Shown in pieces: positions 11,155 through 53,305 of a stretch of DNA of 64,000 nucleotides. The notes under the pieces were generated by a model, which was not told the DNA's origin, did not search any database, and saw only the letters and a list, made by a program, of their open reading frames with translations. Position 1 is the first letter of the stretch; every line of letters starts with the position of its first letter. The translations under genes were made by a program, and so were the position numbers. Source of the stretch: Stegostoma tigrinum (taxonomy: Eukaryota); NCBI RefSeq assembly GCF_030684315.1, contig NC_081373.1, positions 23,847,989-23,911,988 on the forward strand. The letters run 5' to 3'.

Positions 11155-12810
11155 AACTCCACATTACAGAAGAGGAGGTGCTGGTAGTCTTAAAACGCAG
11201 TAAGATAGATAAATCCCCGGGACCTGATGAATTAGATTAGGTTTTGTTGTAACGTGCACTTCAGTACAAAAGTATGGGAAGCCTATCCCAGGACTTTGTT
11301 GGACGGTAGGGAGAAAATTGTGGGATCCCTAGCAGACATATTTGTATCTTTGACAGTCATGGGTAAAGAGCCCAAAGACTGGAGGGTTGGTAATGTTGTG
11401 CCATTATTTAAGAAAGGCTGCAGGAAAATAGCTGGGAACTACACTGCTAAGCCTAATGTCTGTGGTAGGTAAGTTGTGAGAGGGGCTTCTGACAGGCAGG
11501 TTTTACAGGCATTTGGTAAGTCAAGTACTCATTTGGGATAGTCAGCATGGTGCTGTGGATAGGAAATTGTGTCTCATAAATTTGATTGAGTTTTTTGAGG
11601 GGGTGACCAAGAAAATAGATGAGGCCAGTGTAGGGGACATTGTTTACATGGACTTTAGCAAGGCCTTTGACAAGCTACTGCATGGTATGTTGTTAAGGTT
11701 CAATCTCATGGGTCCAGGGAGTGCTAGCCAATTGGATACAAAATTGGCTTGAAGGTAGAAGACAGATGATAGTGATAGAATCTTGCTTTTCAAATTGGAG
11801 ACCTGCGACCAGTGGTGTGCAACAGGATCAGTGCTGGGTCCACCGTTATTCATCATTTACATAGATGATTCGGATGACAGTTTAGGAGATATGGTTAGTA
11901 AGTTTGCAGATGACACCACGATTGGTGGTATAGTGGACAGTGAAGAGGGTTATGTGGGAATACAGGGAGATCTTGATCAACTGGGCCAGTGGGCTGAGAA
12001 ATGGCAGATGCAGTTTAATTTAGATAAATGCGAGATGTTGCGTTTTGGAGGGTCAAATGAGGGCAGGACTTACACAGTCAAAGGTAGGGCCTTGGGGAGT
12101 GTTATAGAACAAAGAGACTGAGGGGGAAAAATTCATAGCTTCTTGTAAGTGGAGTCAAAGGTAGGCAGGGTGATGAAGGCAGCTTTCGGCATGCTTGCTT
12201 TCATTGAACACAGCATTCAGTATAGGAGCTGGAAAAAGATGTTGCAGCTGTACAGGACACTGGTAACGCTACATTTGGAGTGCTGCAAGCAGTTCTGGTC
12301 GTCCAACTACAGAAAGGATATTATTAGAATAGAAAGAGTGCAGAAAACAAATTTACTAGGATGCTACCTGGCCTGGGAGGTTTGAATTATAAGGATAGAT
12401 TGAATAGTCGGGTACTTTTTTCCCTGGTGTGTAGGACACTGAAGGTTGACTGTCTAGAGGTCTATAAAATCATGCGAGGCATAGATAAAGTAGGCAGCCG
12501 ACAGCTTTTCCCCATGGCAGGGGAGTCTAAAACTAGAGGGCTTAGGTTTAAGTTGAGAGGGGAGAGATATAAAAGGGTCCAGAGGGGCAATCTGGCAGAT
12601 AGAGGGTGACGAGTGTCTGGAATGAGTTGTCAGAGGTAGTGGTGGAGGAGAATACAATTTTGTCATTTAAGAAACATTTGGATAGGTCCATGGATGGGAT
12701 GAGTATGGAGGGATATAACCGAACATAGACAAATGGAATTAGTTTAATTGTGGAAAACTGGGTGGGATGGACAAGGGCCTGTTTCCATGCTGCAAACCTG
12801 TATAACACTA
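11155..12810 (+). mobile_element. CR1 LINE ORF2 3' half (degenerate), inserted into a Penelope-terminal hairpin element
   Basis: NVVPLFKKG, YMDFSKAFDK, GSVLGP, SKFADDT and KWQMQFN motifs; the flanks 11101-11155 and 12815-12975 join into one short element. Confidence 0.9.
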
Positions 12811-13299
12811 TAAGCAGGACTGGCTGCATCTGTTGGGAGAGAAACAGTTACCATTTCAACTGCAGTTCTGAAGAAGTCTGCTTCTCTGCCAACAGATGTG
12901 GCCAGACCTGCTGAGTTTCTTCAGCATTTTCAATTTGGTTCAGTTTTCCAGCACCTGCAGTATTTTGCTTTTATTCCATTTGAGTTAGAACTCAGTTACA
13001 TGTTACAATTACTTTTAAAAAAAGAACATATTGGGTAACAGGAATCCTTCAGTGCCAGCTTAGGGTTAAAAAAAGGAAGTTACTTTCATATTTATTAATA
13101 TTTGGTACAATGGACTGCAGTTAGGTTGTGTAATCAGCTTTTAGGAGCTGAGTGAATCTTATGATTGACAAAAATGGATCAAATGCCAATGGAATAAGTC
13201 CCTAATCTCCACTCAGTTAAATCCTATCTCTCAATTGATCAGCTCCAATTAGTCCTTCTTCCACCATCGGTTGTTTAAATAAAGGCTATACAGAAAACA

Positions 13300-14300
13300 T
13301 TCTTGTAAAGACAAGATTAGAAACCGAAAGCACTACAAATCTATGCAGATTTCACCGAGTTTTTCCAACTCCTACTGGAGAAAACACATGACCGCTCCGC
13401 ACTGTTATATTTACTTGCGAAAAAATGTTTCCGTCCTTTACATAGATCAACATTTTGAAAGTTTCTTTTTCCCATAGATCACCACGTCAAACGGAGAATG
13501 ATGGTCTGAGGGCTGAGTTAGAATCCGTGAGACGCAGTGGCATAATTCTGATTTTTTTTGTAAAAAAAAGAAACGTTTTGTTTATACTGCACGGATCCAA
13601 GGTTGAATTAAACACGTGGCGGGGGGAAAGGTGCAAAGTTTTACTCGTACCTTCGGCCTAAACGATTAGAGTCGGCACAAGCTCGAAGAACAGGAAGCAA
13701 ACTCCTCTACAGTTGGTTGTTTGGTGACAAATGCTACAAAATGTATCGAGACTCAGAGTTCAGGAAATGAGTGGAGCTGAAACTGAAGGCTCCAAGTGAC
13801 CAGCATCGCCCATTGGCTGCTGACTGAAGTAGCCACAGATCTGAAAATTGTACGGCCAAAATAAAAAGGCTCCGATCGCAGGATTTGATGGAGTCCCTTT
13901 CCCCTTCCCCACTCGGAGTTCCCGGACTGGACCAAGTTCCTGTGAGCTGAGAGGGTGTTTCCAGTGCGGGAATGCCTCATTGTCCCGGAACACTTACACG
14001 GCTGACAGGGAATTTCCAACTAATCACCAACAACCTACTTTCAAAAAATTCAATTCCCCTTTCCCCGCCAACAGGGAGTTAGATTTTCGACCTGTGGGGA
14101 AAATGGGGCATTTTGTTTTGTTGCAGACCGCTCAGAGCGAAGGTTTGGCAAGCAGACGATTTTCACTCAAACCTTCCGCTGCAAACTGACCCCCTCGAAG
14201 GTCCAGGACTAGGTGCCGAGGGGCGCTCTTGAAGTTTCTGGCAGCCAAAGCTCAGTAGGGACAGCCCGCCCTCTAAAGTCTTTCTTCCAAAATATGACGA
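13300..14300 (-). promoter_or_regulatory. Probable CASP7 promoter / non-coding first exon(s)
   Basis: Locally CpG-enriched unique DNA; - strand donors CGT|GTAAGT (exon end 13998) and AAG|GTACGA (exon end 13651); consensus NF-kB site GGGAATTTCC at 14008-14017. Confidence 0.45.
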
Positions 14301-14624: not shown

Positions 14625-17054
14625 ATGTTTGGACATCGAGCAGTTTTTCCGCTGCCTTCGCCTCTGCGCTTACTTCTCTAACCGGGAGCCTAACCCTCCC
14701 TCCACTGACCCCTTCATCCGCCTCTAACACTGTGGATGCCACCCCCAGGCCTCCGACCCTCCCTTGACCTCTTCATCTCCAACTGCCATTGAGACATCAA
14801 TCGCCTCAACCTCTCCACCCCTCTCACCCACTCCAACCTCTCCCCCGCAGGACGGGCAGCCCTCCATTCCAATCCCAGCCTCACCACAAAACCCGCGGAC
14901 AAGGGAGGCACAGTTGTAGTATGGTGCACTGACCTCCACATTGCTGAGGCCAGATCCAACTCTCCAACACCCCCTCCTACTGCTCCCTGGATCATGACCC
15001 CACCCCTGAGCACCAAACCATCCACAACCTCATCACCTCAGGAGACCTCCCACTCATAGCCTCCAACCTCATTGTTCCCCAACCCCGCACCACCTGCTTT
15101 TATCTCCTTCCCAAAATCCACAAACCCACCTGCCCTGGTTGACCCATTGTCTCTGCCTGCTCCTGCACCACCGAACTCATTTCCACATATCTGGACTCCA
15201 TTTTCTTCCCCTTGGTCCAGGAACTCCCTACCTACGTCCGTGACACCACCCACCCGCCCCCCCCCCCCCCCCACTTCCTCCAGAACTTCCAATTCCCTGG
15301 TCCCCAACACCTCATTTTCACCATGGATGTCCAGTCTCTATACAACTGCATTTCCTTGCAGATGGCCTAAAGGCCCTCTGCTACTTCCTTGTCCCGCAGG
15401 CCCAACTAGTCCCCCTCCACCGACACCCTCATCAACCGAGTTGAACTCGTCCTTACCCTCAACAGCGTCTCTTTTGATTCCTCCCACTTCCTACAGGTGA
15501 AGGGGGTGGCCATGGGTACCCGCATGGGCTCAAGCTATGCCTGCCTCTTTGTAGGTTACGTGGAACAATCCCTCTTCCGTACCTACACTGGCCCTAAACC
15601 CTGCCTCTTCCTCCATTACATCGATGACTGTATCAGCGCTGCCTTGTGTTCCCAAGAGGAGCTCGAACAATTCATCTACTTCACCAACACCTTCCATCCC
15701 AACCTCAAGTTCACCTGGACCACATCCCTCCCGTTCCTGGACCTATCTGTCTCCATCTCAGGCAACCACCTAGAAACCGATGTTCATTTCAAGCCCACCG
15801 ACTCCCACAGCTACCTAGAATACGCCTCCTCCCACCCACCTTCCTGCAAAAATCCCATCCCCTATTCCCAATTCCTTTGCCTGCACTGCATCTACTCCAA
15901 GGATGAGGCATTCCACTCCCGTACATCTCAGATGTCCTTGTTCTTCAAGGACTGCAAATTCCCCCCTGCAATGGTCGAGAACGCCCTCAACCATGTCTCT
16001 CACATTTCCCACAACTCATCCCTCACACCCCACCCCCGCAATAACCACCAAAATAGAATCCCCCTCATCCTCACATACCACCCCATCAATCTCCGGATCC
16101 AACACACCATCCTCTGACACGTCCGCCATCTACAATCCGACCCCACCACCAGACTTTTTTCCATCCCCACCCTTGTCTGCTTTCCGGAGGGATCACTCTC
16201 TCTGTGACGCCCTTGTCCGCTCCACACTTCCCTCCAATCCCACCACACCCAGCACTTTCCCCTGCAACTGCAGGAAGTGCTACACTTGCCCCCACACCTC
16301 CTCCCTGACCCCAAGAAGACTTTCCACATCAAGCAGATGTTCACTTGCACAACTGCCAATATGGTATACTGCATCCACTGTATCCATTGTGGCTTCCTCT
16401 ACATTGGGGAAACCAAGCGGAGGCTTGGGGACCGCTTTGCAGAACACCTCCGCTGGGTTCGCAATAAACAACTGCACCTCCCAGTCGTGAACCATTTCAA
16501 CTCCCCATCGCTTTCCTTAGACGACATGTCCATTATGGGCCTCCTGCAGTGCCACACCTTTGCCACCTGAAGGTTGCAGGAACAGCAACTCATATTCCGC
16601 TTGGGAACCCTGCGGCCCAATGGTATCAATGTGGATTTCACAAGCTTCAAAATTTTCACTCCTTCCACTGTATCCCAAAACCAGCCAAGCTCGTCCCCAC
16701 CTCCCTAACCTGTTCTTCCTCTCACCTATCCCCTACCACCTCAAGCCGCACCTCCATTTCCTACCTACTAACCTCATCCCGCCCCTTTGACCTGTCTGTC
16801 CTCCCCAGACTGACCTATCCCCTCCCTAACTACACTCACCTCTACAGGCTCCATACACACCCCTTGTCTGTCTCCTCTCCACCTATCTTCTCCTCTATCC
16901 ATTTTCAATCCGCCTCCCCTCTCTCCCTATTTATTTCAGAACCCTCTCCCCACCATCTTTTCTCATGAAGTGTCTAGGCCCAAAACGTCAGCTTTTGTGC
17001 TCCTAAGATGCTGCTTGGCCTGCTGTGTTCATCCAGTTCCACACTTTGTTATCT
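14625..17054 (+). mobile_element. Penelope-like retroelement, 5'-truncated and frameshifted (RT + GIY-YIG endonuclease)
   Basis: KPADKG-like motif, GVAMGTRMGSSYACLF, YIDD, LPFLDL; GIY-YIG VYCIHC..CG.LYIGETKRRLGDRFAEH; terminal repeat identical to the dispersed hairpin family. Confidence 0.92.
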
Positions 17055-19539: not shown

Positions 19540-20900
19540 GTGGATGTTGTTAGTTAGACTTGCATTTATTGATTATTAATTGCCATTGAAGGTGGTGAGC
19601 TATCTTCTTGTGGACACATTCACAACACTGTTAGGGATTCAGCATTACAACACCACAACAGTAAGACAGTGGTCATGTAATTCTAAGTAAGGATGTCATG
19701 ATACTTGGAGGAGAACCACAGGTGGCAGTCAAAGTATTTGCTGCCTTGATCCTTCTAGCTGGTATTCTGTACATTTACAAGGTGCTATCAGAGTGATCTG
19801 TGGCAATGTATCTTGAAGATAGATACACATCGGAGGCAACAGCCCAGTGGTATTATCGCTAGACTGTTAACCCGGAGATCCAGGTAACATTCTGGGGACC
19901 CGGGTTTGAATCCTGCCACAGCAGATTGTGGAATTTGAATTCACTAAATATCTAATGATAATTGTGATCCATGATCAATTGTTGTAAAATCCCACCTGGC
20001 TCACTAATGCCCTTTAGGGAGGGAAACTGCCATTCTCACCTGGGTGTGGCCTATGTGACTCAAGGCTTGAGGTTGACTCTCACTTGCCCTCTGGTCAATT
20101 AAGGATAGGCAATAAATGTTGCTTAGCCAGCAGTGCCCTCATCTTGCAAATGAATTAAAAAACACTTGCAAATGTGCATAGGTGAATGAAGTGAGTAAAA
20201 GGTGGTCAAGTGGCTGCCAAATCAAGCAGCTTCTTCACTCAGGATGGTGTTGAATTGATGCTATTGCTACCATCCAGGTCAGTGGAGATTATTTCATCAC
20301 ATACCCGATTGACTTCGAGATTGGGGGACAGGCTTTGGGGCGACCAAGGTGAGATATTCACCACAGAATGTACAGCCTCTGACAGGGTCTTGCAACTACA
20401 GCATTTATAAAGTTACTCCAGTTCCTTTTCTGACCAAATGGTAAAGTGCTTGATGTTGAGATTGCAGACAGTAAGCAATCATAATGACACTGAATATTAA
20501 GAGACATTTAGATTGTCTTGGTGGAGGTGGTCATTGCCAGATACTTAGCATGCTAAGCCCGAGTGTTGTCCAGCATGAACTCGGACTGTTTCAGAATCTG
20601 AGTAGCAAAGCATGGTGCTGAACATTGTACATGGGGATATTTATTGATTGCACAAACTGATGGAGGGAAGGTCATTGATGAAGCAGCTGGTAGTTGAGCC
20701 TAGGACACTACCCAGAGGATAGTACTGCAGTGCAACAGTACTGTCCTGGAATGAGATGATTAACCTTCAGCCAGTCATGTTCCTTTGTCCTATGTATAAC
20801 TCCAACTGGTGGAGAGTGCTCCCCAGCCCCCCACCCCAGTTCCAATTGAACAAGAATTTTGCTTGGGCTCCTTGATGCCATATACACAATATTGCTTTGA
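19540..20900 (-). mobile_element. Decayed LINE 3' fragment interrupted by a SINE
   Basis: Similar to the 8310-9400 element (gcatttatt..gaaggtggtgagct; gttgagcctaggacact). Confidence 0.55.
19830..20160 (+). mobile_element. tRNA-derived SINE with LINE-derived tail
   Basis: A/B-box-like head (cccagtggtattatcgctagact..gggtttgaatcc), tail ggataggcaataaatg; near-identical layout at 24415-24780. Confidence 0.75.
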
Positions 20901-21198
20901 TGTCAAACTTTTTCTCTTACTGTTGTCGAATGCCAAGCAGCATAAAACTTGTAGACAAAAAAAATCTACAGGATGTAAATCAATCCCAGACTAGCAATAT
21001 GCTTTCTAAATGCACCACTACAATACTTCAAAAAAAAAGTCCCAAGGCTCCAAACATTAGTAATAAATAAAATGAACTGCAATGCATTCATTGGGCATCA
21101 ACATTAATCATTAGATCAAAATGAAACTTTAAAACCTTGTGGAAGACAACATTTGAAAAGAAAATATATACCTGAGGTTTTATAACAAATTTTCTTTT

Positions 21199-21324
21199 TT
21201 AGTCAATGTTTTTCTTTTGCAGACTGGTGATTATATCACTTAAATTCTGATCAAGCTGCTGATATTCAGATACGTTTGGACGTTTAGTTCTTCTGGGCCC
21301 ATTTTTCTGGCACAATCCACTGAT
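21199..21324 (-). CDS. TGN46/KCT2-family membrane protein, cytoplasmic-tail exon (ISGLCQKNGPRRTKRPNVSEYQQLDQNLSDIITSLQKKNID*)
   Basis: Acceptor ctttatttccag, phase 0, in frame with the upstream TM exon; RRTKRPNVSEYQQLDQN resembles TGOLN2 RRPKASDYQRLDQK and C5orf15 VEYHRLDQNV; stop TAA 21199-21201; donor CAG|GTATAT at 21171. Confidence 0.85.
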   Translation of the reverse strand: MSGLCQKNGPRRTKRPNVSEYQQLDQNLSDIITSLQKKNID

Positions 21325-21542
21325 CTGGAAATAAAGCGTGTACATGATTCCTTTTAAAACTCAGTCTGTTGCCAATGTTGAAATAGCGTGCCTATCACAC
21401 AATTTAAAGAGAGCAGCTTTTAAAATCTGAAAAAAAACTATCACAAGGACAGTTCACCAGGTGCACACTGGCTATATCCTGTCAACATTTTTAAACCTCT
21501 TTGGATTTTAGTGGAGTAAGATTGGGGTTTGGTTGGCAGCAG

Positions 21543-21568
21543 CGGGGTGGGGGGGGGGGGGGGGGGGG
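21543..21568 (+). repeat. Poly-G tract
   Basis: ggggtgg followed by a run of about 20 G. Confidence 0.9.
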
Positions 21569-23019
21569 TGTTCGGTTTCGTGGTGGTGGTTGTGTAAATC
21601 CATTGTTGCAGCTGATGGTAATTTCCCTGACAGGCTTGTTAAAGATACCCTCTCTATCTCAAGCAACATGAGATTAAATACTTAGTGAGTAACTTTGCAT
21701 CAAGAATTCATAGCAGGGCATTCAGGATTGTACTCTAGAATAAAAAAAGTGTTGTGGATCCTGGGGATCAGGCTATTTTGTATCCAGTAATGTGTAATGA
21801 GCTAGGTTTAATAAATTAATCTTAGGAAACCTGCTTGTGGTCATTGTTCCCAAGGGTAACAATTTAGCATTCACTGAATGAGAAACATGGATTGGAAACA
21901 TCTAGGATAAATGTAAAGGAGGACAGTTACATAAGGATGATGACAGAGTTGGCAGGAGTGAATTGGGAAGAGAGGTTAGCAGAAATGACAGTTGATGAAT
22001 ACTGGCAAATGTTTTTAAAAAAGGTTCCTGATCAGAGATATATCCTGAAGAAGAACGATTCTAGGATGGGGATAAATTGACCAATTTTGTAAAATCAGGG
22101 TCAAGAACAATACAAAACTGAAAGTAAAACAAACAACATGGCAAAGATTAGTGGTAAATCAGAAATACGCAAGTTGTAAAAGCCAAAAGATAATTAAAAC
22201 TAGTAAATTTTGGGGTGAGCAAGTAACAGATGGTAAGAGCTTCTTATAATACATGAAAAACACAACATTAAACATGGGCCCCTTAGAGAATGAAGCCAGA
22301 GAAATAAGGCAGAGTCACAAAACAGTAGAGTAGCTGAACAAATATTTGACCAATGGGAGATACTAATGGCATTCCATACTAAATAATCAAATGGCTAAAG
22401 GGACAAGAGGGGAAAAGAGGAAATAAGCAATAACTGCCATAAGAGAAAAATAGTCACTAGGGCAACAAACGGGGCTTAAGGCTATTAAAACTGCAAGACC
22501 TGATGGGATACATCCTAGGATATTGAAGGAAATAGCTAGAGATAGTGGATCCACTGGTTGCCATCTTCCAAGAATCATTAGGATGCTGGGAAAAATTTCC
22601 CGAGGATTGCACACTTAATGTGATAACCATATTTAAAAACAGAGGGACAATTCAGGAGGCTACAGGCCAGGTTTTAAACTAATTGTCATTAGGAAAATAT
22701 TCATCTATTATAAAGGGTATAATAGCAGATCTTATAGAAACAATGTAATCCATGACAGCATGGCTTCATGAAAGAGAAATTATGACTGATAACTGTATTA
22801 GAGATCTTAGACGTAACAGGCTGGGTAAATAAAGAGGAGCCAGTAGATGTAGAAAGTTGGGTATTCAATAAGGTACCACAAAAGGCTACTTACAACGTCC
22901 TTGGCGCTGAAGGTTATATATTAACATCAAGAGGTCTGGCTAACAAATAGAAGACTGCATTGGGTTAGGAGAACATTTTCAAGATGGTGATCTAACTGGG
23001 AGAAGTGCCAGAAGGACCA

Positions 23020-23785
23020 CTTCGATAACTTGGGAGTGTCCTATCAGTCAAAGCAGTTATTGAAGAAGAGATCCAGCATTACTTCCAGCATGCTGGGGCA
23101 GGCTTCAGCCACCAGAGAAAAAGGCTGTTCAAAGGCACTACCATCAGATTTGACACAAAGCTCATGGTTTACAGAGCTGTGGTAGTTCCTATCTTCCTAT
23201 ATGGCTCGGAGATGTGGACTGTCTATTGCACATACCTCAAGACACTGGAGCAGTACCAATGCTGCCTGCGCACAATTTTGTGTGTTCACTGGGAAAACAG
23301 ACACACCAATGCCAACGACCCTGACCAGGTCAACATTCCCAGTACTGAGGCACTAACCACCCTTAATCAGCTGCAATGGGCTGGGCATGTCGTCTGAATG
23401 ACCGACACGAGAATCCCTAAGCAAGTGCTCTACTCCCAGTTTCGAAACGACAGGTGAACCCCAGGCGGACAGAGGAAATGCTTAAGGAATACTTGGAAAA
23501 AGGTCTCACTGGGGAAGTACAGAATGTCCCGCTGACACCAAGGAAGCACTAGTCCAAGACCATCCAAAATGGAGGAGCAGCATCTGGGAAGGTGTCGAGC
23601 ACCTCAAGGCTTGCTATCAAGACAAAGCGGAAGCCTTCTAAAAATAGCATAAGAAGCACGTTGCCACACCAAAGCTCCTCTCCCCCTTTCTCTTACCCAT
23701 CTTCTGCCCCAAGCATGGCAGCATGTACAGCCACCCTGAAAGTGGAAGATTTCGCTAGTCTATGAGGGACTGCCAATGAGGATGA
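23020..23785 (+). mobile_element. RTE-clade LINE 3' fragment
   Basis: VYRAVVVPIFLYGSEMWTVY...LRTIL.VHW...QLQWAGHV is the typical RTE ORF C-terminal motif set. Confidence 0.75.
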
Positions 23786-24414
23786 TAAGTGCTGGGGCAC
23801 AAGTATTTACAATATGCATGAATGACATGGATGTGGAAAGTGAATATACTATAGTGAAGTTCACAAATGACAAATGTGGTGAGGATGACCAAGCCTTGAG
23901 AGGGATATAGACAAATTACATGAATAGAATGAAATTTTATTCAGAATATGTTGGAAAATGGGAGGTTATACATGTTGGCAGGAAGAGTAAGGAGGAGCTA
24001 AATATTGAAATGGAAAAAAATTCCAGAAAGCTGCAACACAGATTAGGGGCTGCTAGTGCATGAATTGCAAAACAAAAACGCTAGCATCCAAGTTTATAAT
24101 GTTTCTTCTATTTCAAAGAGAATGGAGTATAAAAAAAATCTTGCTAAAAAAACTGTATAAAGTACTACTCAGATCATAGCTAGAATAACTGAACAGTTTT
24201 GGGCTCTTTATTAATTAAAGATATACTGGAATCAGAGGCAGTTCAGAGAAGGTTCAGTAGGCTGATACCAGGTCCAAGGGCTGGCTAAAGAGAGGTTGAG
24301 CAGGTTGAGCTTATACACTTTGGAATATACAGGATTCTTGGGGAACTTGACAGAGTAAACACTAAGATGTTTCCCTTGTAGTAGAGTCTAGGAGAGGAGG
24401 ACATAATCTCAGCA

Positions 24415-24780
24415 TAGGGGAGTGATGGTCAAGTGATATTATCGCTGGACTGTTAGTCCAGAGACCTGGATAACTTTCAGGGGACCCCGGTCTGAATCCC
24501 ACCACAGCAGATGGTGGAATTTGAAGTCAACAAAAATATCTGGAATTAAGAGTCTAATGATGATCATGAATCCATTGCCAATTATCCAGAAAGCCCATCT
24601 GGTTCACTACAGTCCTTTAATGAAGGAGACTGTTGTCCTCATCTGGTCTGACTCCAGACATGTGACTCCAGACCCACAATAATGTCGTTGACTCAATTGC
24701 CCTCTGAGCAATTAGGGATGGGCAATGAATGCTGCCTGGTCAGCGATGCCCTCAACCCGTGAGCGAATAAAGGAGGAAAA
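24415..24780 (+). mobile_element. tRNA-derived SINE (same family as 19830-20160)
   Basis: Collinear with the 19830-20160 copy. Confidence 0.75.
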
Positions 24781-24859
24781 AAAGTCACCTATTTAATACA
24801 AGATGAGGAGGAATATTTTCTAAGGGTAGCGAATCTGTGGACTTCTTTACAAGTACGGG

Positions 24860-25535
24860 TCATCCTGCTTTAGGGAGGATATTATTCATTGGAGAGGGCT
24901 CCGAAAACATTTACCAGGAATGAGGAGGATTTGAGTTATAAAGGAGAGGCTGCAAAGGCAGCGACTTTTTTCCACTGGAGTATAGGAGGTTGAGGGAGTG
25001 ACCTTATGGAGGTTTATAAAATCATCAGGGTATGGATAAGGTGAACAGCAAAGGACTTTTCCCTGGGGGAGGGGAGCTCAAAACCAAGCAGCATATTTTT
25101 CTGAGATAATGGGAACTGCAGATGCTGGAGAATCCAAAGACAACGAAGTGTGAAGCTGGGCACTCTCTGATGAAGGGTCTAGGCACAAAACGTCAGCTTT
25201 TGTGCTCCTGGGATGCTGCTTGTCCTGCTGAATTCGTCCAGCTTCACACTTTGTTGTCCAGCATATTTTCCAGGTGAGGAGAGAAAGATTTATAAAGGGG
25301 ACCTGAGGAGCAACGTTTTCCACATACAGAGTGGTTCTTATGTGGCGTAAACTGCCAGAGGAAGTGGTGGATGCAGGTAGCTACTATCCAAAAGACATTC
25401 TGCTAAGTAGATGAATAAGAAAGGTCGAGAGGAACATGGGTAAATACAGGCAAGCGAGACTAGTTTTGTTTGGGAAACTTGGTTGGCATGGACGGATTGG
25501 AGCAAAGGGTCTGTTTCTGTGCTATGACTCTCTAA
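24860..25535 (+). mobile_element. CR1 LINE 3' fragment containing a Penelope-terminal hairpin (~25102-25258)
   Basis: gaggttgagggagtgaccttatggaggtttataaaatc (RLRGDL.EVYKI-like); hairpin flanked by the direct repeat cagcatatttt. Confidence 0.75.
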
Positions 25536-25648
25536 CTCTACAGCATAATTGGCATTAGGATCTGCAAAAAAAACCTAGACGTAATGCAGCAAACTTTATA
25601 TCTCAAAACTAAAATTTGACAGTCACAAATATAAAATGCCAAGCTTAC

Positions 25649-26238
25649 CTTGCTTTTGCTGTGGTAGAGAACGTACATTACTGCTACAAACAAAGAGCCA
25701 CTTAGCAGATAAATTACAAAGCGACTGCTTGTCACAGTTGGTGCCAGCAGCATTTCCTTTGCCTTCCCAGTCTCAGTCTCCTTCGTGCCTTGGCCCTGGC
25801 CCTTGGGCAGCACCCCCTTGTCTGGCTCCGTGCCCGTGCCCTCGGGCGGCGGCTCCGTGCCCTCCGTGCCCGTGCCCTCGGGCGGCGGCTCCGTGCCCTC
25901 CGTGCCCGTGCCCTCGGGCGGCGGCTCCGTGCCCTCGGGCGGCGGCTCCGTGCCCGTGCCCTCGGGCGGCAGCTCCGTGCCCTCGGGCGGCGGCTCCGTG
26001 CCCTTCGTGCCCGTGCCCTCGGGCGGCGGCTCCGTGCCCTTCGTGCCCTCGGGCGGCGGCTCCGTGCCCTTCGTGCCCGTGCCCTCGGGCGGCGGCTCCG
26101 TGCCCTTCGTGCCCGTGCCCTCGGGCGGCGGCTCCGTGCCCTTCGTGCCCTCGCCCTTGGGCGACGTCACATTCTTTTCCCCATCCATGCCTCGTCCCTC
26201 GTTCTTGGTCTGTATTTTTGGGCCTCCCTCAGCATGGC
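25649..26238 (-). CDS. TGN46/KCT2-family membrane protein, ectodomain + transmembrane exon
   Basis: Acceptor gaatttttaccag at 26239, donor AAG|GTAAGC at 25648 (phase 0 after YHSKSK); open frame with TEPPPEG repeats, then SSRFVIYLLSGSLFVAVMYVLYHSKSK resembling TGOLN2 [27 protein letters not shown]; in-frame Kozak ATG (GGCATGG) at 26188. Confidence 0.83.
25824..26152 (-). repeat. GC-rich coding minisatellite (core ggcacggagccgccgcccgag) encoding ~10 TEPPPEG units
   Basis: Unit lengths vary only by multiples of 3 (TG, TKG, TEG linkers), so frame is preserved. Confidence 0.95.
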
Positions 26239-27479: not shown

Positions 27480-28319
27480 AAATTCAATGCACAAGTAATG
27501 CAAACAATTTCTGAACAAGTCAAAAAAGAAAATTTCACAGAACTTTAAGTGATAGTAGAAGAGGCAGCAATCACTACAGCCCTCTAAATCGCAGTATATT
27601 ACAAACTGAAATTAAAGAACACTTTAAAAAGGTTCTTGCAAAGATTTGTAGCTGGGTTTGTGGAGGAAATTGTTGGCTTGCTCACCAAGCCATCCGGTTA
27701 AGAATCATGATGCTGACAATTTGAAGAAATAAACAAAAATATTGCTCCAGAGACTTAGCAGGTCTAACAGTATCTGTTGGGAGAAAGCAAAGTTAACCTG
27801 AAACATTAATTATGCTTTCTGTCCACTGATTCTACCACATCCAGAGTCTAACATTATTTTTCTTTCAACATAGTCATTGCTAGTGAGATCCTTACTAAAG
27901 GCCAAGTTCTTTGCAAAAGAGGCTCCTCTTTAAGTATTGAATCAGACATGAAGATTGGTACAATGAGAGCTAAGTAATGCATCTACTTCTATAAACCATT
28001 GAAAAATGGAAACCTTCTCTGCTTTGAGATGTAGGTTTTGCTCTGCAAGAAGCGTTATTAATAAAGCTGACACTTTATTCTGCAGAAATAACATTAATTT
28101 TACCCCCAGATTCTTGAAGTTTAAGGGAAGGGTCCAGCAAATAACGTATTTTTATGGCATAAACAGTCTTTAACATGCGTAAGTCAGGACTTAGTCAAAT
28201 TTACTCAGAAATGAAACTGTCTTCAAGTCAGGATCAATGCCATTCAACAACATTAATCAAATGAGATTTTTGTTTTTAGAAGCCATAGATAAAAACGGTT
28301 CGCACAGAAGTGTTATTAC

Positions 28320-29400
28320 CCTGCACTACTGTTTCTGTTCAGGTCTCAAGCGAGGGCAATTGAGGCAATAGATACGAGAAAACGGCAATGTTCCAGTAAC
28401 ACGCGGGAATCTGATGTTAACTCGAACGGCTCAGCCATGATATATTTCGGAAGGAATAAAGTGGTTTATAATTTAGGGGCGGAGTCATGATTAGACCTCA
28501 AGATTTAGGCGTGGAAGTATTGTACTCAAGTGAAATTCAGTTTACCACTAATCTTTTAGAATTGTATTTGATGATTGAGTTATAACACGAGTTTCCGGAT
28601 GCAAACACACAATTTCAAAGCACATGAAGTCTTTCCTTTCAAGATAAACGGCAACAAAACGGAAGTGAAATAAATGCCGCGGTTTCAGCGTGAGTTGGTA
28701 GCTCAATTCTCCAAGTGACTTCTCACATGACCAAGGCAAAGGTCGAAATATTACGTTTGACTCAGTTAAACAGGCTCACAAAAATCACACTGCAAGTTAA
28801 TATTGCCACCCGCTCACTATTTAAATTAGTTTTTTTTAATGTCTTTTAATGAAAAAAGGGTTTATTTTGGCCAATGTAAACACAGCTTCCTGATTTCGAC
28901 AACTGGGCAAAGGTACTGCCAATTCAGCACCGACTCCCCATTAACAGAGGGGGACACACGTTTCTCTCGCGGGGCTGTTGGCATTAACACTTTTACTGCA
29001 TTTGGAATCTGTAACCTGCTGTCACTTTGAAGCCTTAAACTAGCGCTTTCTACTTAAATACGTACCATCTATGAAGAGACATAATACAACAATGATAAGG
29101 AAACAGACTTTCCACGCCATGCTGCTTTATCAAGGAGTTGAGTTTCATCAAAAGCAATACGGAAAACACGTACACGCTCTTTATGCAAATACAGTCTAGC
29201 ACCACCTCTGCAACCGTTTACAGAAGAGCATCGCTCCACATACGTACATATAGGTACGCATGGAAAGCTGTGATCAATACCAATAGATAAAATGAGATCG
29301 ATTAGCCCATGGCAAGTTTCCTAAAATGCTCATTAGCCAATGATCTAGTAACAAGAGTTGTTGCTTGTCATGGGAGCTGACGTAAAATTTTTGGGGTGGA
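28320..29400 (-). promoter_or_regulatory. Probable promoter / first exon region of the TGN46/KCT2-like gene
   Basis: CpG-enriched unique DNA; GC box ggggcggag 28476-28484; GGAAGTGAAA 28661-28670; CCAAT boxes and tgacgtaa near 29280-29385; - strand donor CAGG|GTAATA with exon end 28320. Confidence 0.45.
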
Positions 29401-29865: not shown

Positions 29866-30905
29866 GTAGTTATCGTACCTTCCTGATTGCCTTGATCATT
29901 GTCCTATTGAATGGAAGCACAACATGTAACGTATGTGCAGCTGAGCACTGTAGCGAGAGGGCTATTGTGAACCACATGGAGAGCAACTTCTACAGGATGG
30001 GGATCAGGGTTTTTAAAAACAAATTTATTCTAATCTACCTCAATGACCATTTTGTTCATGAGTTGGATTCCATCTCAATAAGAATTTTGGGAGAGACTTC
30101 CTACTGAAAGTGTGGCTTACTCATTATTCTAACTCGTGGTTTTAAAAATGGGTGTCACTGACTAGGCCAGCATTTATTTGCCCATCTTTAATTGCCCTCA
30201 AGAAAGTGACGGTCAGCTGCCTTTCTAAACTGCTGTAGTCCATGTGGCACAGGTATACCCACTGTGCTGACAGGGGGCTAATGTGAGACTTTGAACTAGT
30301 GACTGTGAAGTGTAGATGCTATGCCTCCAAATATAACTATTTAACACAATTGTAGTGGTTTAATGTTATTAGAGATTTAATAACAAAGTATGCCAATCCT
30401 ATAGTTCATCTGTTCATTGCAGTATCTAATTAGTTTTTAAATGGGTTGAAATTTTGGCTGCACTTCTATATCTGGGGAAATCCATTGTATTTATTTATTA
30501 TTTATATGAAAAATGTTTTGGTATCAGGACTGATTTTTGCCACTTGTTAATTTGAATCCATACTCCTTGTTTCTTTTCTCTTTACAGTGCCTATTCTTGA
30601 TGTTGACCATCTGTACATACTTCTATAAGACCATCTCTGACTTCTCTGCACCCCACCCATCCATGCAAGGTGAGAAATCATTGTAACTCAGGTGATTAGT
30701 AAGAGATGAACTCTGTGTAGACACTAATTTTTCGAAGCTGATAGTATGCTGAAGTGAATCTGTAATGGGAGCTTTGAAGCAGCAGGGCTGGTAATGAATT
30801 TACCTGTTACTAAATAAAAATACAGCTGTATAAACAAGCATGCAGAAAATTGTAATCTGGAAACACCTGTTTTGATTTGCTAGTGCATTTGATACTGTAG
30901 TCAAA

Positions 30906-31265
30906 ACCGCAAAAGATTCTCCTTTTCAACTATTCTACTTGCTTGAGGTGTGGTGACTCTCCGTTTAATATGCCTATTCTTGATGTTTACCATCTGTACA
31001 TAATTCTATAAGACCATTTCTCTTTAATGAGAGAGCAGCTCTGTGAGCTAGTCAGATTATGGTAACTTTATCTTACCTTTCACGCTAGTACAAGGTAAGA
31101 TAATGTTACCATAATCTGACTAGATCACAGAGCTGCTCTCTCATTAAAGAGAAATGGTCTTATAGAATTATGTACAGATGGTAAACATCAAGAATAGGCA
31201 TATTAAATGGAGAGTCACCACACCTCAAGCAAGTAGAATGGTTGAAAAGGAGAATCTTTTGTGGT
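30906..31265. repeat. Near-perfect inverted duplication (arms ~30906-31079 and ~31092-31265) of a SINE 3' part
   Basis: Arms are reverse complements with only a few mismatches; ~12 bp spacer; the right arm continues into a tRNA-like SINE head at 31266-31348 (- strand). Confidence 0.92.
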
Positions 31266-36879: not shown

Positions 36880-38600
36880 AATTTATTTACAAGTTTGTTG
36901 ACTTGATTGCCGAGCTGGCTTGTTCTCATTCAGACGTTTCGTCACCATGCTAGATGACATCATCACTGAGGTCTCTAATGAAAGCAATATTCTCCTACTC
37001 TGCTGGGAATCTGTACCGTCTGGTCTGTTGTGGTGAGTACTATCATTTCCAGTTTTGATCTGTGTGGGTTTGTATATGGGGTCCAATTCTATATGTTTAT
37101 TGATCAGCATTACAGGCTCAGAACCATGCCTCTAAGAATTCCCACGCAAGTGTATGTTTGGCTCGGGCTACTTTGGTTACATTGTCCCAGTTAAACTGAT
37201 GGCCTTCATTGTTTGAGTGTACTGATATTAAGGAGAATTTGTCGTGTCGTTTTGCTGCTAGCTGATGTTCAGGAATTCTGATGGCTGGCTAGCTTCCTTC
37301 CTATCTGTTCGATGTAATGTTTGTGGGCAGTCGTTGCATGGTATTTTGTAAAACAACATTGGTTCTGCATGTTGTCAGAATGATGTCTTTAATCCTCGTA
37401 GTGTTTGCCTGAGAGTGGCTGTGGGCTTGTGGGTTATCATGATTCTGAGAGGTCTTAGGAGTCTTGTTGTCGGTTCTGATATTTTCCTGATGTAGGGCAG
37501 TGTGGCCAGTGTGTTAGGGCGTTCTGTGCACTCCTGTTGTTGTCTATTTAGTAGGCATCTGCAGATGAAGTTGGAGTGATATCTGACCATATCTGTAGGT
37601 GCTCTTCCTCTTTGCTGCTCAGTTCTGAAGTGTTGCAGTGTGTCGTGACCTGTTTAAGTAGTGTCCTAACACAGCTTTATTTGTGGTAGTTGGGGTGGTT
37701 GCTATGGAGGTTGAGGATTTGATCAGTATGGGTTGCCTTTCTGTGTATCGAGGTTTGGAATTCCCCATTGGTCATGCGCTCAACTTTGACGAACAGAAGT
37801 GGAAGTTGATTGTTGTTTTCTTGTTCCCTTGTGAATTTAATCCCTGTGAATACCTGTTGATGAGGTGATGGTTCTCTTCTAACTTGTTGTGTTTAATAAT
37901 GACAAATGTGTCATCTACGTACTGGATTCACAGTTTAGGTTGAATGTGGGGGAGGATTGTGTTTTCTAATCTTTGCATGACTGCTTCTGCAGTGAGTGCA
38001 GAGATGGGTGACCCCATTGGTGTAATGCTGATCTGGTTGTGTACTTGCTCATTAAAGACGAAGTGTGTGGTGAGGCATGGATCTAATAGTTTGAGGGTAT
38101 GTTGCCCTTGCTGATGGAACTGCTGGTCTGCGTTCCTGCTTCCAGTGATAATGTGGCCAGTATTTCTTTGGCTAGTGGGATGTTGATTGATGTGAATAAA
38201 GCTGTGACATCAAAGGATACCGCATTCTTGTTGCTGATTTTTGTGTTCTTGAGGGAATTCTTGGATTGAATGGATAGAATAGGATGATCCAACATCGGCT
38301 AGGTGTTTCAGTGTCTGCTGTAGGTCCCTGGCCGGTTTGTGTGAAGATGTGTCTGATACGGAAACAATGGGTCTGTGGGGGATCTGGTTGGTGTACTTTA
38401 GGACGCCCATAGAAGTGGGGGAGTATTTGTGCCTTCTGGTTTCATTCTCATGTGGTCTGTCTTAGTTATCTGTCCTGCATCCTCTCGTCTCCTCTGTCTG
38501 GGTGATCCTATTAACGAGCTGCAGTGTTGGGTCTATTGTCACCTGTTGGTAAGTGGTTGCATCTGTGAGCAACAATTGTGCTTTCTTAACATCGTCTTTG
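36880..38600 (-). mobile_element. Second Penelope-like retroelement (different family), degenerate RT + GIY-YIG
   Basis: Minus-strand remnants PHRPIVS, VSFDVTALFTSI, PMGSPIS, YVDDTF, ATLPYI, YKIPCNDC; hammerhead-like terminus at ~36930-36968. Confidence 0.85.
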
Positions 38601-42462: not shown

Positions 42463-42531
42463 ATGAATAAACCGTGCGCTCGCTGTGGTTTTGGCGTCTA
42501 TCCTGCCGAGAAAATAGTCTGCATAGACCAG
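42463..42531 (+). CDS. NRAP: NRAP coding exon 1 (LIM domain start, MNKPCARCGFGVYPAEKIVCIDQ)
   Basis: Matches human NRAP MNVQPCSRCGYGVYPAEKISCIDQ; donor CAG|GTGAGT. Confidence 0.95.
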
Positions 42532-50929: not shown

Positions 50930-52470
50930 AATTTTCCAGCTGACTTCCAGGCACCCTAAATCTTCAGGAATCCACCTGACTGTCCGTCTGACGGCGACTT
51001 CCCAGTGGTTGACCAAGGAACGTGTGCTGCAGGCAGGGTTTGAGGTCTAGGAGGGGCTGTGTGCATGATAGCAATGTCACTAGACTAGACCAATAATCCA
51101 GAAATTTATGTTAACGTTCTGGGAATGCACAATTCCCAGAATCCTCGGAATTTTTAGTCAATGTTTCTTAATATTGATTTCTGCCTTTGGCAACTGATGA
51201 TAATAATACAATCTTCTATGGTTAATGTCAATTTGATGTTGTCCAGACTGAGACTGTTATTTTGCTAGAATAATTGATATCTTATATAAGTAGTATCATT
51301 TTTGATTACTAAATTATGTACATTTAAAATCAGGACAACACTAGAGTCATCATTTGTGACTGCAGAACTCCTGTCTTCCTGCTGTCAGATTAACCTAACA
51401 GGCAATTATTATCAATCCCCTCCATTGAAAAACAACTTAATGAAAATAAACAGCTCAGACAACATGCTGAGACACAATAATATTTCAAAGTTACCTTTTT
51501 AAGATTATGAACATTGTGACACGGTGGCAATATGACATATATACAATGAAGACAAGGTATCACAGTGGTGAAATGTTTTAATGTATGTTGAGAATCCTAA
51601 TTCACAAGAACTGAAGGCATACGCAAGTTACAAATTTCCTGAGCTGGGAGTAATCAGAGGCGTAGATGCAGACAAGGTCTGACGTCTGAACGTCACTACC
51701 CACCCACCAAAACCTGCTTCTTTCCTTGAATGCCTGCATCCACAAAGAAGAAACAAAACTTGGATAACCCAAGGGGCATGCATTGAGTGGTGAACATTAG
51801 GACCAGGAGGCTGCTGCTGTCTGGTTAACCTTGATTGCCGCTGTTGCAGCTAATGATTGCCTGCCAATTGGTTCTATGCAGTGAGTCATCTTCTTGGTTA
51901 GGGAGATCTGTTCGTTGCCACCAAACAGGTCCACCCCCATATTTAGGTAAACAAAGGGAAAATTGCTCCCCCATGAAGATACTCGAATGCAGAGTCAACT
52001 TTCTTTTGAGATTGAAAGCTGTTCTCCCCACTCGAGCCCTTGTGCGATCATATTGGGTGGAGCTTAATGCACTGTTCAGCATTAACCCGTTCAAAACCAA
52101 AGATCCCGTACAACAGTTTGCTCAACAATGTTATTAAAATTAGAACTGTCAAAGTACCTTTACCTATTCTTTTGTGGCAAGTACTGCCACTGAGTCTGCA
52201 AAGTCCCGGGGATTCTGTGAAAATGAATGGCTTTTGTGAGGTTTTACACTTATTTTCAGAAGGTGGCGCAGACATTTAATGGTGAGGCATGTTTATTTCA
52301 TACAGGAATTGGTACTGAAGGGCTCATATGGCATGGAGCATTAGTCTGTTTACTCCATGCTGGAAATATGCCTTGTGGGAGTGCAATGTCATCATCCACT
52401 GTATATATCGAAAAGAAAAACAGACATTGTGCAAATTTCTGCTCCCAGTGCAGACTGTTTCAGACTGTAT

Positions 52471-53144
52471 CAGTGATAATGGGAACTGCAGATGCTGGAG
52501 AATCCAAGATAATAAAATGCGAGGCTGGATGAACACAGCAGGCCCAGCAGCATCCCAGGAGCACAAAAGCTGACGTTTCGGGCCTAGACCCTTCATCAGA
52601 GAGGGGGATGGGGTGAGGGTTCTGGAATAAATAGGGAGAGAGGGGGAGGCGGACCGAAGATGGAGAGAAGAGAAAATAGGTGGAGAGGAGCGTATAGGTG
52701 GGGAGGTAGGGAGGGGATAGGTCAGTCCAGGGAAGATGGACAGTTCAAGGAGGTGGGATGAGGTTAGTAGGTAGGAGATGGAGGTGCAGCTTGGGGTGGG
52801 AGGAAGGGATGGGTGAGAGGAAGAACAGGTTAGGGAGGCAGAGACAGGTTGGACTGGTTTTGGGATGTAGTGGGTGGAGGGGAAGAGCTGGGCTGGTTGT
52901 GCGGTGAGGTGGGGGGAGGGGACGAACTGGGCTGGTTTTGGGATGTGGTGGGGGAAGGGGAGATTTTGAAGCTGGTGAAGTCCACATTGATACCATTGGG
53001 CTGCAGGCTTCCCAAGTGGAATATGAGTTGCTGTTCCTGCCACCTTCGGGTGGCATCATTATGGCACTGCAGGAGGCCCATGATGGACATGTCATCTGAA
53101 GAATGGGAGGGGGAGTGGAAATGGTTTGCGACTGGGAGGTGCAT
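52471..53144 (-). mobile_element. Penelope-like element 3' fragment (GIY-YIG C-terminus + terminal repeat)
   Basis: Minus ORF HLPVANHFHSPSHS.DDMSIMGL..EQQLIFHLGSLQPNGIN, same family as 14625-17054; TSD tgtttcagactgtat at 52456-52470 and 53145-53159. Confidence 0.92.
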
Positions 53145-53305
53145 TGTTTCAGACTGTATGTTCGCTTGGGTTGTATGTGAAAGCACTGAATCCCATATAG
53201 TAGCCCTTAAAGGGGCCCGCCATCAAAAAAGTAATTTTAAAACATATTAACAGGTTTAACATTGCAATTTTTTTTGTTCTTTCTCTTTTTACATTTTCAT
53301 GCCAG

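What the first reader, a model, noticed from the sequence alone, without database searches (positions are those of the whole stretch)
21199..26238. Hidden TGN46/KCT2-family gene between CASP7 and NRAP: a candidate third 2R paralog
Seen: a - strand exon (26238-25649) encodes a Pro/Thr/Glu/Gly repeat ectodomain, a hydrophobic span (FVIYLLSGSLFVAVMYVLY) and HSKSK. It splices in phase 0 to a 126-nt exon (21324-21199, absent from the ORF track) encoding ISGLCQKNGPRRTKRPNVSEYQQLDQNLSDIITSLQKKNID, giving 221 aa from ATG 26188. Established (recalled): TGOLN2 and C5orf15 share S(S/H)FF..L...Y..HNKRK|I with an intron at the same spot and a YxxL-DQ sorting motif. TGOLN2 lies next to TCF7L1 (2p11), C5orf15 lies near TCF7 (5q31), and human NRAP/CASP7 lie near TCF7L2 (10q25) with no such gene between them. 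Inference: this is a third ohnolog on the TCF7L2 paralogon, kept in sharks and lost in mammals. Its tail mixes TGN46-like (RRxKRP.xS.YQxL) and KCT2-like (DQN....SL) features.
Basis: partly seen in the sequence, partly recalled or inferred. Interest (0 to 1): 0.92.

Follow-up and report, generated by a model that had tools for sequence, protein, structure and literature searches.

The report
Third TGN46/KCT2 gene in cartilaginous fishes
Sharks, rays and a chimaera carry a spliced third member of the TGN46/KCT2 family of Golgi-type membrane proteins, likely a copy left by the early vertebrate genome doublings and likely lost in bony vertebrates, and its tail keeps both of the likely ancestral motifs that the two known paralogs each keep only one of.

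Summary
The gene is real. It passes Pfam KCT2 (31.3 bits, cut-off 26.2). The 25649/21324 splice is joined in a probable RNA contig of a related species. The genome holds separate TGOLN2-like (beside TCF7L1 and a CASP7-like caspase) and C5orf15-like (beside VDAC and TCF7) loci; this gene lies 0.76-0.92 Mb from TCF7L2, next to CASP7. Orthologs in 11 named chondrichthyan species form their own clade (99/98). None from a bony vertebrate appeared in two protein searches, but these also missed several annotated sharks, and bony-vertebrate genomes could not be searched. The tree rejects a shark duplicate of KCT2 (p 0.015-0.021) but not of TGOLN2 (p 0.09-0.10); synteny and the tail argue against the latter. 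The 'mixed' tail is the ancestral state: invertebrate-type homologs have both motifs. Verdict: an apparently undescribed third ohnolog (about 0.8), predicted to cycle through the TGN and endosomes.

The parts
28200..29400 (-). CpG-enriched region around exon 1, likely the gene's own promoter
   Evidence: CpG o/e 0.74-1.05 in five 400-nt windows, window median 0.22
29066..29120 (-).
   Evidence: Maps residues 1-19 of P0002; GT donor; hydropathy 2.27 over residues 1-19
25649..26238 (-). Coding exon 2 (590 nt): low-complexity Gly/Pro/Thr/Glu ectodomain, transmembrane helix, HSKSK; phase-0 donor
25826..26163 (-). Coding tandem repeat (21-36 nt units) that makes most of the ectodomain; unrelated repeats in orthologs
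25664..25720 (-). Transmembrane helix, residues 192-210
   Evidence: 19-residue hydropathy 2.1; aligns with the family TM
21199..21324 (-). Coding exon 3 (126 nt with stop): cytosolic tail with conserved Cys220, RP motif, YxxL and DQNL extension
   Evidence: covered by contigs of X1, X2, X3
21253..21264 (-). YQQL (Tyr236), the YxxL sorting motif, position 26 counted from the juxtamembrane His
   Evidence: 13 of 13 clade proteins have YxxL, 12 at position 26
21220..21252 (-). DQNLSDIITSL extension after the YxxL motif
   Evidence: D, Q, N, L, S, T, L invariant in 8 of 8 aligned orthologs
20640..21198 (-). Likely 3' UTR ending near an AATAAA at 20645
   Evidence: X1 contig covers 20661-21199; AATAAA
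5343..5465 (-). Neighbour: approximate first coding exon of CASP7; the rest lies left of the window; a separate CpG-rich region at 13200-14200 is its likely promoter
42463..42531 (+). Neighbour: first coding exon of NRAP, head to head with the gene
   Evidence: Pfam LIM and Nebulin hits in following exons; the name NRAP is recalled from this architecture

Best explanation
This is a spliced three-exon gene for a single-pass membrane protein of the TGN46/KCT2 family, distinct from this shark's TGOLN2-like and C5orf15-like genes, and it is likely the TCF7L2-linked copy from the vertebrate genome duplications, likely lost in bony vertebrates, whose protein is predicted to cycle between cell surface, endosomes and trans-Golgi network. 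Shown: exons, splice, family, separate clade, three loci each beside a TCF/LEF gene. Inferred: the signal peptide sends it into the ER; the Thr/Pro-rich (Ser/Thr-rich in most orthologs) lumenal domain is O-glycosylated and disordered; the YxxL motif binds the mu subunits of AP-2/AP-1 and drives uptake and return to the TGN, as the YQRL segment of TGN38 does; Cys220 may be S-acylated; the DQNL..TSL extension is a second, uncharacterised tail element inherited from the pre-vertebrate gene. I put TGN/endosome cycling at about 0.65 and the ohnolog origin at about 0.8.
For: Family: PF17818 over cut-off for P0002 and 6 of 6 orthologs scanned. Same gene plan as the paralogs: phase-1 signal exon (55 nt here, 58 nt at the C52 locus) and phase-0 intron after H-x-K-x-K at all three loci. 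Splice seen in a probable RNA contig; 17-member cluster of full-length spliced orthologs on 1.2-1.9 kb Logan contigs (15 listed). Three family loci: C24 (window), C15:29.47 Mb, C52:0.61 Mb. Four TCF/LEF loci: C24 24.64-24.80, C15 29.84-30.02, C52 0.51-0.53, C1 11.92-12.01 Mb; 3 of 3 family loci lie within 1 Mb of one (random placement about 0.3% each, my arithmetic). C24 TCF best matches TCF7L2 (80.8 vs 70.6 bits), C1 LEF1. C15 has the VDAC 30 kb away. Both C24 and C52 show TCF, then the family gene on the TCF's 3' side and strand, then an effector caspase within about 20 kb. PMC9303524 (sections 3.2 and 4.1 read) places TCF7L1 and TCF7L2 as 2R sisters, which fits. Clade support 99/98 with chimaera inside. 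Tail census: RP motif 13/13 clade, 100/109 TGOLN2, 0/8 KCT2, 5/6 outgroup; D-x-N-L/V/I 13/13, 1/109, 8/8, 6/6. YQRL segment sufficient for TGN localisation (PMC2119736, abstract passage).
Against: The 80-column tree does not resolve the order of the three vertebrate groups, TGOLN2 has only 74/80 support, and a chondrichthyan duplicate of TGOLN2 is not rejected. The C52 and C15 TCF genes are not told apart by their N-terminal exons (both best match TCF7L2 chains); their names rest on neighbours and recalled human gene order. Absence from bony vertebrates rests on 150 listed of 395 hits and a word-limited search that also returned no ortholog from several annotated sharks. Gene order in other chondrichthyans was not seen. 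This species reads YQQL, whereas TGN38 needs its Arg not to be Asp. PMC10928510 (passages) says that TGN46's lumenal domain carries its sorting function, and that domain is not conserved here. No localisation data.
Confidence: 0.78

Rival explanations
1. A duplicate of TGOLN2 that arose in the chondrichthyan stem, moved next to CASP7 and diverged fast; bony vertebrates never had it.
For: AU test does not reject clade + chondrichthyan TGOLN2 (p 0.092; p 0.102); all named members are chondrichthyan; RP motif and 3'-of-TCF position shared with TGOLN2.
Against: It would need to regain the D-x-N-L extension that 108 of 109 TGOLN2 proteins lack but invertebrate-type homologs and KCT2 have, to lose the donor that follows the YxxL exon at the C52 locus, and to land by chance beside the paralogous TCF and caspase.
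Confidence: 0.1
2. A 2R ohnolog as in the best reading, but still present, diverged or unannotated, in some bony vertebrates (bichir, gar, coelacanth, lungfish, amphibians), so the loss is narrower.
For: 245 of 395 phmmer hits were not listed; only 8000 candidates scored; several annotated sharks were missed too; misleading names show how easily the gene is overlooked.
Against: The chimaera ortholog scored 83.8 bits and the list reached down to 43.2 bits with 109 TGOLN2, 5 KCT2 and 6 invertebrate-type proteins but no further clade member.
Confidence: 0.25
3. A chondrichthyan duplicate of C5orf15/KCT2.
For: Shares the long last exon and DQN..SL with KCT2; several orthologs are named KCT2-like; the best LG tree joins the two groups at 55/15.
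Against: AU rejects clade + chondrichthyan KCT2 (p 0.021; p 0.015); 0 of 8 KCT2 have the RP motif.
Confidence: 0.03
4. The sole, translocated TGOLN2 of this species, or a pseudogene or repeat-driven false ORF.
For: The ectodomain is a GC-rich tandem repeat open in several frames; no RNA run of this species was listed.
Against: A normal TGOLN2-like gene exists on C52; open frame and tail conserved to chimaera; splice seen; exon 3 differs from X1 at 3 of 126 listed places against 98 of 1341 in UTR and intron pieces (Fisher p 0.04; rough, the difference table was truncated).
Confidence: 0.01

Closest known systems
TGOLN2 / TGN46 / TGN38
   Same: Type I topology, low-complexity lumenal domain, S(H/R)F..YL TM start, H-x-K-x-K stop-transfer, phase-0 intron there, RP motif before YxxL, 3' side of a TCF7L gene with an effector caspase next door.
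   Different: Tail runs about 20 residues past YxxL (median 4 in TGOLN2), conserved I-x-x-L-C (12/13 vs 0/109), no intron after the motif, separate locus and clade.
C5orf15 / KCT2 (keratinocyte-associated transmembrane protein 2; Pfam PF17818)
   Same: Long last coding exon, YxxL-DQN..SL tail, same intron, TCF-linked locus.
   Different: Lacks the KCT2 R-W and L-C-S block; has RP and a Ser two residues before Tyr (11/13 vs 0/8); ectodomain lacks the acidic stretch; nesting in chondrichthyan KCT2 is rejected.
Invertebrate TGN46/KCT2 pro-orthologs (barnacles Pollicipes and Amphibalanus, Chamberlinius, three unnamed records)
   Same: Both tail modules together: RP..Y..L and D-x-N-L/V/I.
   Different: They keep I.A...EGR after the TM as TGOLN2 does; the shark clade has I..LC instead.
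NCBI automatic models of this gene (XP_048406998.1, XP_059509026.1 and orthologs)
   Same: Same exons and protein.
   Different: Named inconsistently (MAGE-like 2, salivary proline-rich, TGN38-like, KCT2-like, SPT2 homolog, FLO11-like, uncharacterized), not as one orthology group.

Membership tests
TGN46/KCT2 family (Pfam PF17818) | Score over the Pfam gathering cut-off | tested here: met
   31.3 bits (P0002) and 31.6 (P0001) vs 26.2; orthologs 37.5-62.7
TGN46/KCT2 family (Pfam PF17818) | Signal peptide, low-complexity ectodomain, one TM, short tail | tested here: met
   Hydropathy peaks at residues 1-19 and 192-210 only; ectodomain 78% G/P/T/E; no signal-peptide predictor was available
TGN46/KCT2 family (Pfam PF17818) | Phase-0 intron right after H-x-K-x-K; phase-1 signal exon | tested here: met
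   All three loci for the phase-0 intron; phase-1 exon seen here and at C52, not looked up at C15
TGN46/KCT2 family (Pfam PF17818) | YxxL at position 26-27 from the juxtamembrane His | tested here: met
   Position 26
TGOLN2 ortholog | Groups with TGOLN2, short tail, locus beside TCF7L1 | tested here: not met
   Own clade; long tail; another gene on C52 fills this place
C5orf15/KCT2 ortholog | Groups with KCT2, R-W..LCS tail, locus beside VDAC1/TCF7 | tested here: not met
   Another gene on C15 fills this place; AU rejects nesting
2R ohnolog set | Copies lie on paralogous segments with other duplicated families | tested here: met
   3 of 3 loci within 1 Mb of a TCF/LEF gene; caspase neighbour on C24 and C52; FSTL-like Kazal exons pair C15 with C1
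2R ohnolog set | Duplication dated between invertebrates and the gnathostome split by the gene's own tree | tested here: inconclusive
   Vertebrate groups form a clade (93/85) but their order is open; TGOLN2-duplicate not rejected
2R ohnolog set | Same gene order in other chondrichthyans; empty or decayed slot in bony vertebrates | not testable with these tools
TGN-cycling cargo (works like TGN38) | Steady-state TGN localisation that depends on the tail tyrosine | not testable with these tools
   Needs a reporter in cells

The most novel reading that the evidence does not exclude
Cartilaginous fishes keep the only vertebrate TGN46/KCT2 paralog with the complete ancestral sorting tail. After the genome duplications TGN46 dropped the DQNL..SL extension and C5orf15 dropped the RP motif, so the extension, near-invariant from chimaera to skates and present in invertebrates, is an undescribed second trafficking signal; this gene is the natural reagent to find it and to assign a function to the orphan human C5orf15. 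The TCF7L2/this gene/CASP7 and TCF7L1/TGOLN2/CASP7-like triads would be one pre-duplication block.
Probability: 0.4. Interest if true: 0.6.

Novelty: new member of a known kind. Interest (0 to 1): 0.42.

Why it matters
TGN46 is a standard Golgi marker and a cargo-sorting protein (PMC10928510); C5orf15 is nearly unstudied (3 papers held two of its names; none held C5orf15 with TGN46 and Golgi). The shark genome ties both to one duplicated block and adds a third copy whose tail shows what each human paralog kept. It gives a direct test of a second tail motif and one more case of a gene kept in chondrichthyans and apparently lost in bony vertebrates, a known pattern (PMC8455134 counts 208 such families, passage read). 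It also fixes a gene that databases scatter under at least seven names. It does not overturn anything.

Tried and rejected
Single exons against Pfam: only the TM piece hit, under the cut-off (15.1 bits), and the own-genome PF17818 search missed this gene, so those searches are insensitive. My first scan for a signal exon missed it because the donor pattern lacked GTACGT. RNA run search: no RNA holder listed; no evidence either way. ESM Atlas: no usable hit for the tail; the Heptranchias ortholog gave KCT2 clusters at 0.93 and TGN46 at 0.89, no separate cluster. No solved relative. Idea that the gene is nested in CASP7 intron 1 and shares its promoter: set aside, since a separate CpG-rich region lies at 13200-14200; not tested with RNA. 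Possible fourth copy near LEF1 (L004, C1:15.514 Mb, E 4.2): 78 of 133 bases match the C15 exon 3, above 1000 shuffles and 1062 background windows, but it was picked genome-wide, has a stop and an out-of-phase acceptor, no TM exon in 73 kb, no gene family but LINE pieces in 150 of 300 nearby ORFs scanned, was not found by a second query, and the FSTL5-like exon is 27.6 Mb away: treated as probably chance. My note 1 gave exon 1 as ending at 29063; one search showed this wrong and fixed it at 29066. Ten paper searches found no description of a third paralog; most subscription papers are not held. The role of the Ser two residues before the Tyr in TGN38 is recalled; one search did not find the paper. 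Earlier scan notes: nothing relevant. No fold or complex prediction was run: the protein is a disordered stalk, one helix and a short tail.
Full report
OBSERVATION. The two exons are at the stated coordinates with canonical splice sites and join in frame. The longer model starts in a 55-nt phase-1 exon at 29120-29066 that encodes a hydrophobic signal peptide; the three exons (771 nt) translate to it exactly. A CpG-enriched stretch surrounds this exon, and a second one at 13200-14200 probably serves CASP7, so the gene looks free-standing. Contigs of four public runs were laid on 20600-25825: the joint 21324/25649, GT-AG on the minus strand, stands in 1 contig of run X1 (probable RNA, a related organism; depth 238, 27 letters on the short side); it is not listed for X2, X3 or the DNA-like X4; X2 and X3 have contigs over exon 3. 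No RNA run of this species was listed. A 17-member cluster of full-length orthologs on 1.2-1.9 kb Logan contigs is further sign of spliced transcripts.

FAMILY. The spliced protein passes Pfam KCT2 (PF17818) at 31.3-31.6 bits against 26.2. The own genome holds two more loci: C15:29.47 Mb with a C5orf15-type tail and C52:0.61 Mb with a TGOLN2-type tail. All three have a phase-0 intron after H-x-K-x-K; this gene and the C52 gene have a 55/58-nt phase-1 signal exon. A second query found these three loci and two weak others (E above 1).

RANGE. A phmmer search of 1.84 billion representatives with the Chiloscyllium ortholog gave 395 hits, 150 listed; 128 of the 150 carry the family motif: 8 of this clade (65.9 bits and up), 109 TGOLN2-type, 5 KCT2-type, 6 invertebrate-type (the other 22 are repeat matches). 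A profile search gave 16 hits, 13 of this clade and 3 KCT2. Named members come from 11 species: Stegostoma, Chiloscyllium, Heptranchias, Pristis, two Mobula, Narcine, Amblyraja, Leucoraja, Rhinoraja and Callorhinchus. None is a bony vertebrate. This is a search blank: 245 hits were unseen, the profile search scored 8000 candidates of 145 aa or more, and no ortholog came up from several sharks with annotated genomes (recalled: whale shark, catshark, white shark). That mammals have no such gene between CASP7 and NRAP is recalled, not tested.

TREE. On TM plus tail (44 rows, 80 columns, LG+C20) the clade has 99/98 support with the chimaera inside, KCT2 100/99, TGOLN2 74/80, and the order of the three is open. 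A 27-row subset (17 rows dropped for speed, LG+G4) agrees. AU tests reject a clade of this gene with chondrichthyan KCT2 (p 0.021 and 0.015) but not with chondrichthyan TGOLN2 (p 0.092 and 0.102); none of the three pairings of whole groups is rejected. So the tree shows a separate lineage older than the shark/chimaera split but does not date it further.

SYNTENY. The genome has four TCF/LEF loci. The window lies 0.76-0.92 Mb 3' of the C24 gene, whose first exon best matches TCF7L2; the C1 gene best matches LEF1; the C52 and C15 genes are not resolved by that exon and are named TCF7L1 and TCF7 from their neighbours and recalled human order. The C15 family gene has a VDAC 30 kb away and an FSTL4-like Kazal exon 0.73 Mb away. 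The caspase beside the window is CASP7 (130.7 vs at most 110 bits for caspase-3). [quoted passage not shown] Thus TCF, family gene and caspase occur in the same order on C24 and C52, the caspase strand differing. PMC9303524 (abstract, sections 3.2 and 4.1, passages; 3 supplements searched, no mention of these genes) supports a 2R origin of the four TCF/LEF genes with TCF7L1 and TCF7L2 as sisters. A block duplication older than the gnathostome split explains this best, and makes TGOLN2 the expected sister; the tree allows that (p 0.31).

TAIL. Census over the proteins: RP before the tyrosine in 13/13 of the clade, 100/109 TGOLN2, 0/8 KCT2, 5/6 outgroup; D-x-N-L/V/I after YxxL in 13/13, 1/109, 8/8, 6/6; I-x-x-L-C only in the clade (12/13). 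Three outgroup rows are named arthropods, three are unnamed and placed by the tree. The tail is therefore the ancestral combination, and TGOLN2 and KCT2 each lost a part. This species has YQQL where most orthologs and the related runs have YQRL; a skate TGOLN2 also has YQQL. The ectodomains are unalignable, repeat-rich and 123-304 aa in full-length members, S+T 19-35%.

MECHANISM. By analogy with TGN38, whose 11-residue YQRL segment suffices for TGN localisation and needs the Tyr and Leu (PMC2119736, abstract passage), the protein should reach the surface, be taken up through its YxxL motif and return to endosomes or the TGN; binding of such motifs to AP mu subunits is established knowledge, recalled. 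TGN46's cargo-sorting role lies in its lumenal domain (PMC10928510, passages), which is not conserved in sequence here, so a like role is only possible. All of this is inference.

NOVELTY AND VERDICT. Databases hold the gene under scattered names, and Pfam already marks it KCT2. Ten paper searches found no account of a third paralog (listed under Tried and rejected); the whale shark genome paper does not name these genes in its main text (supplements not searched). It is a new member of a known family, of real but modest interest: 0.42.

Noticed in passing
G000:C52:634137-637678 (L021): Divergent effector caspase about 20 kb past the TGOLN2-like gene, nearest CASP7 by its last exon; possibly caspase-17, which would make it the paralogon partner of CASP7.
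   Followed up: partly
L004:1440-1640 (G000:C1, about 15.514 Mb): Weak KCT2-tail-like stretch with a stop, 3.5 Mb from LEF1; no TM exon nearby and the FSTL5-like gene is far. Probably chance; a decayed fourth copy is not excluded.
   Followed up: yes
window 13200-14200: CpG-enriched region about 8 kb upstream of the first coding exon of CASP7, likely its promoter.
   Followed up: no
window 31040-31160 and 30920-31040: A segment of about 150 nt appears as a near-perfect inverted pair around 31085 in the stretch upstream of the gene (seen by eye), with a further partial copy near 30630; not analysed.
   Followed up: no
P0104 cluster: Callorhinchus has closely similar KCT2-like models on three different contigs (139, 81 and 19.6 Mb), suggesting recent duplicates or retrocopies.
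   Followed up: no
P0012 (Narcine ortholog): Lacks six residues at the start of the tail, including the clade's Cys; could be a shifted acceptor or a model error.
   Followed up: no
window 14700-17000, 52300-53250, 11500-12600, 37300-38200: LINE/Penelope-like retroelement remains by their ORF text; not classified with a tool.
   Followed up: no
G000 C49, C52:16.36 Mb, C15:29.50 Mb: Three VDAC loci scored, none on C24; the third on C49 rather than on a TCF-bearing contig.
   Followed up: no
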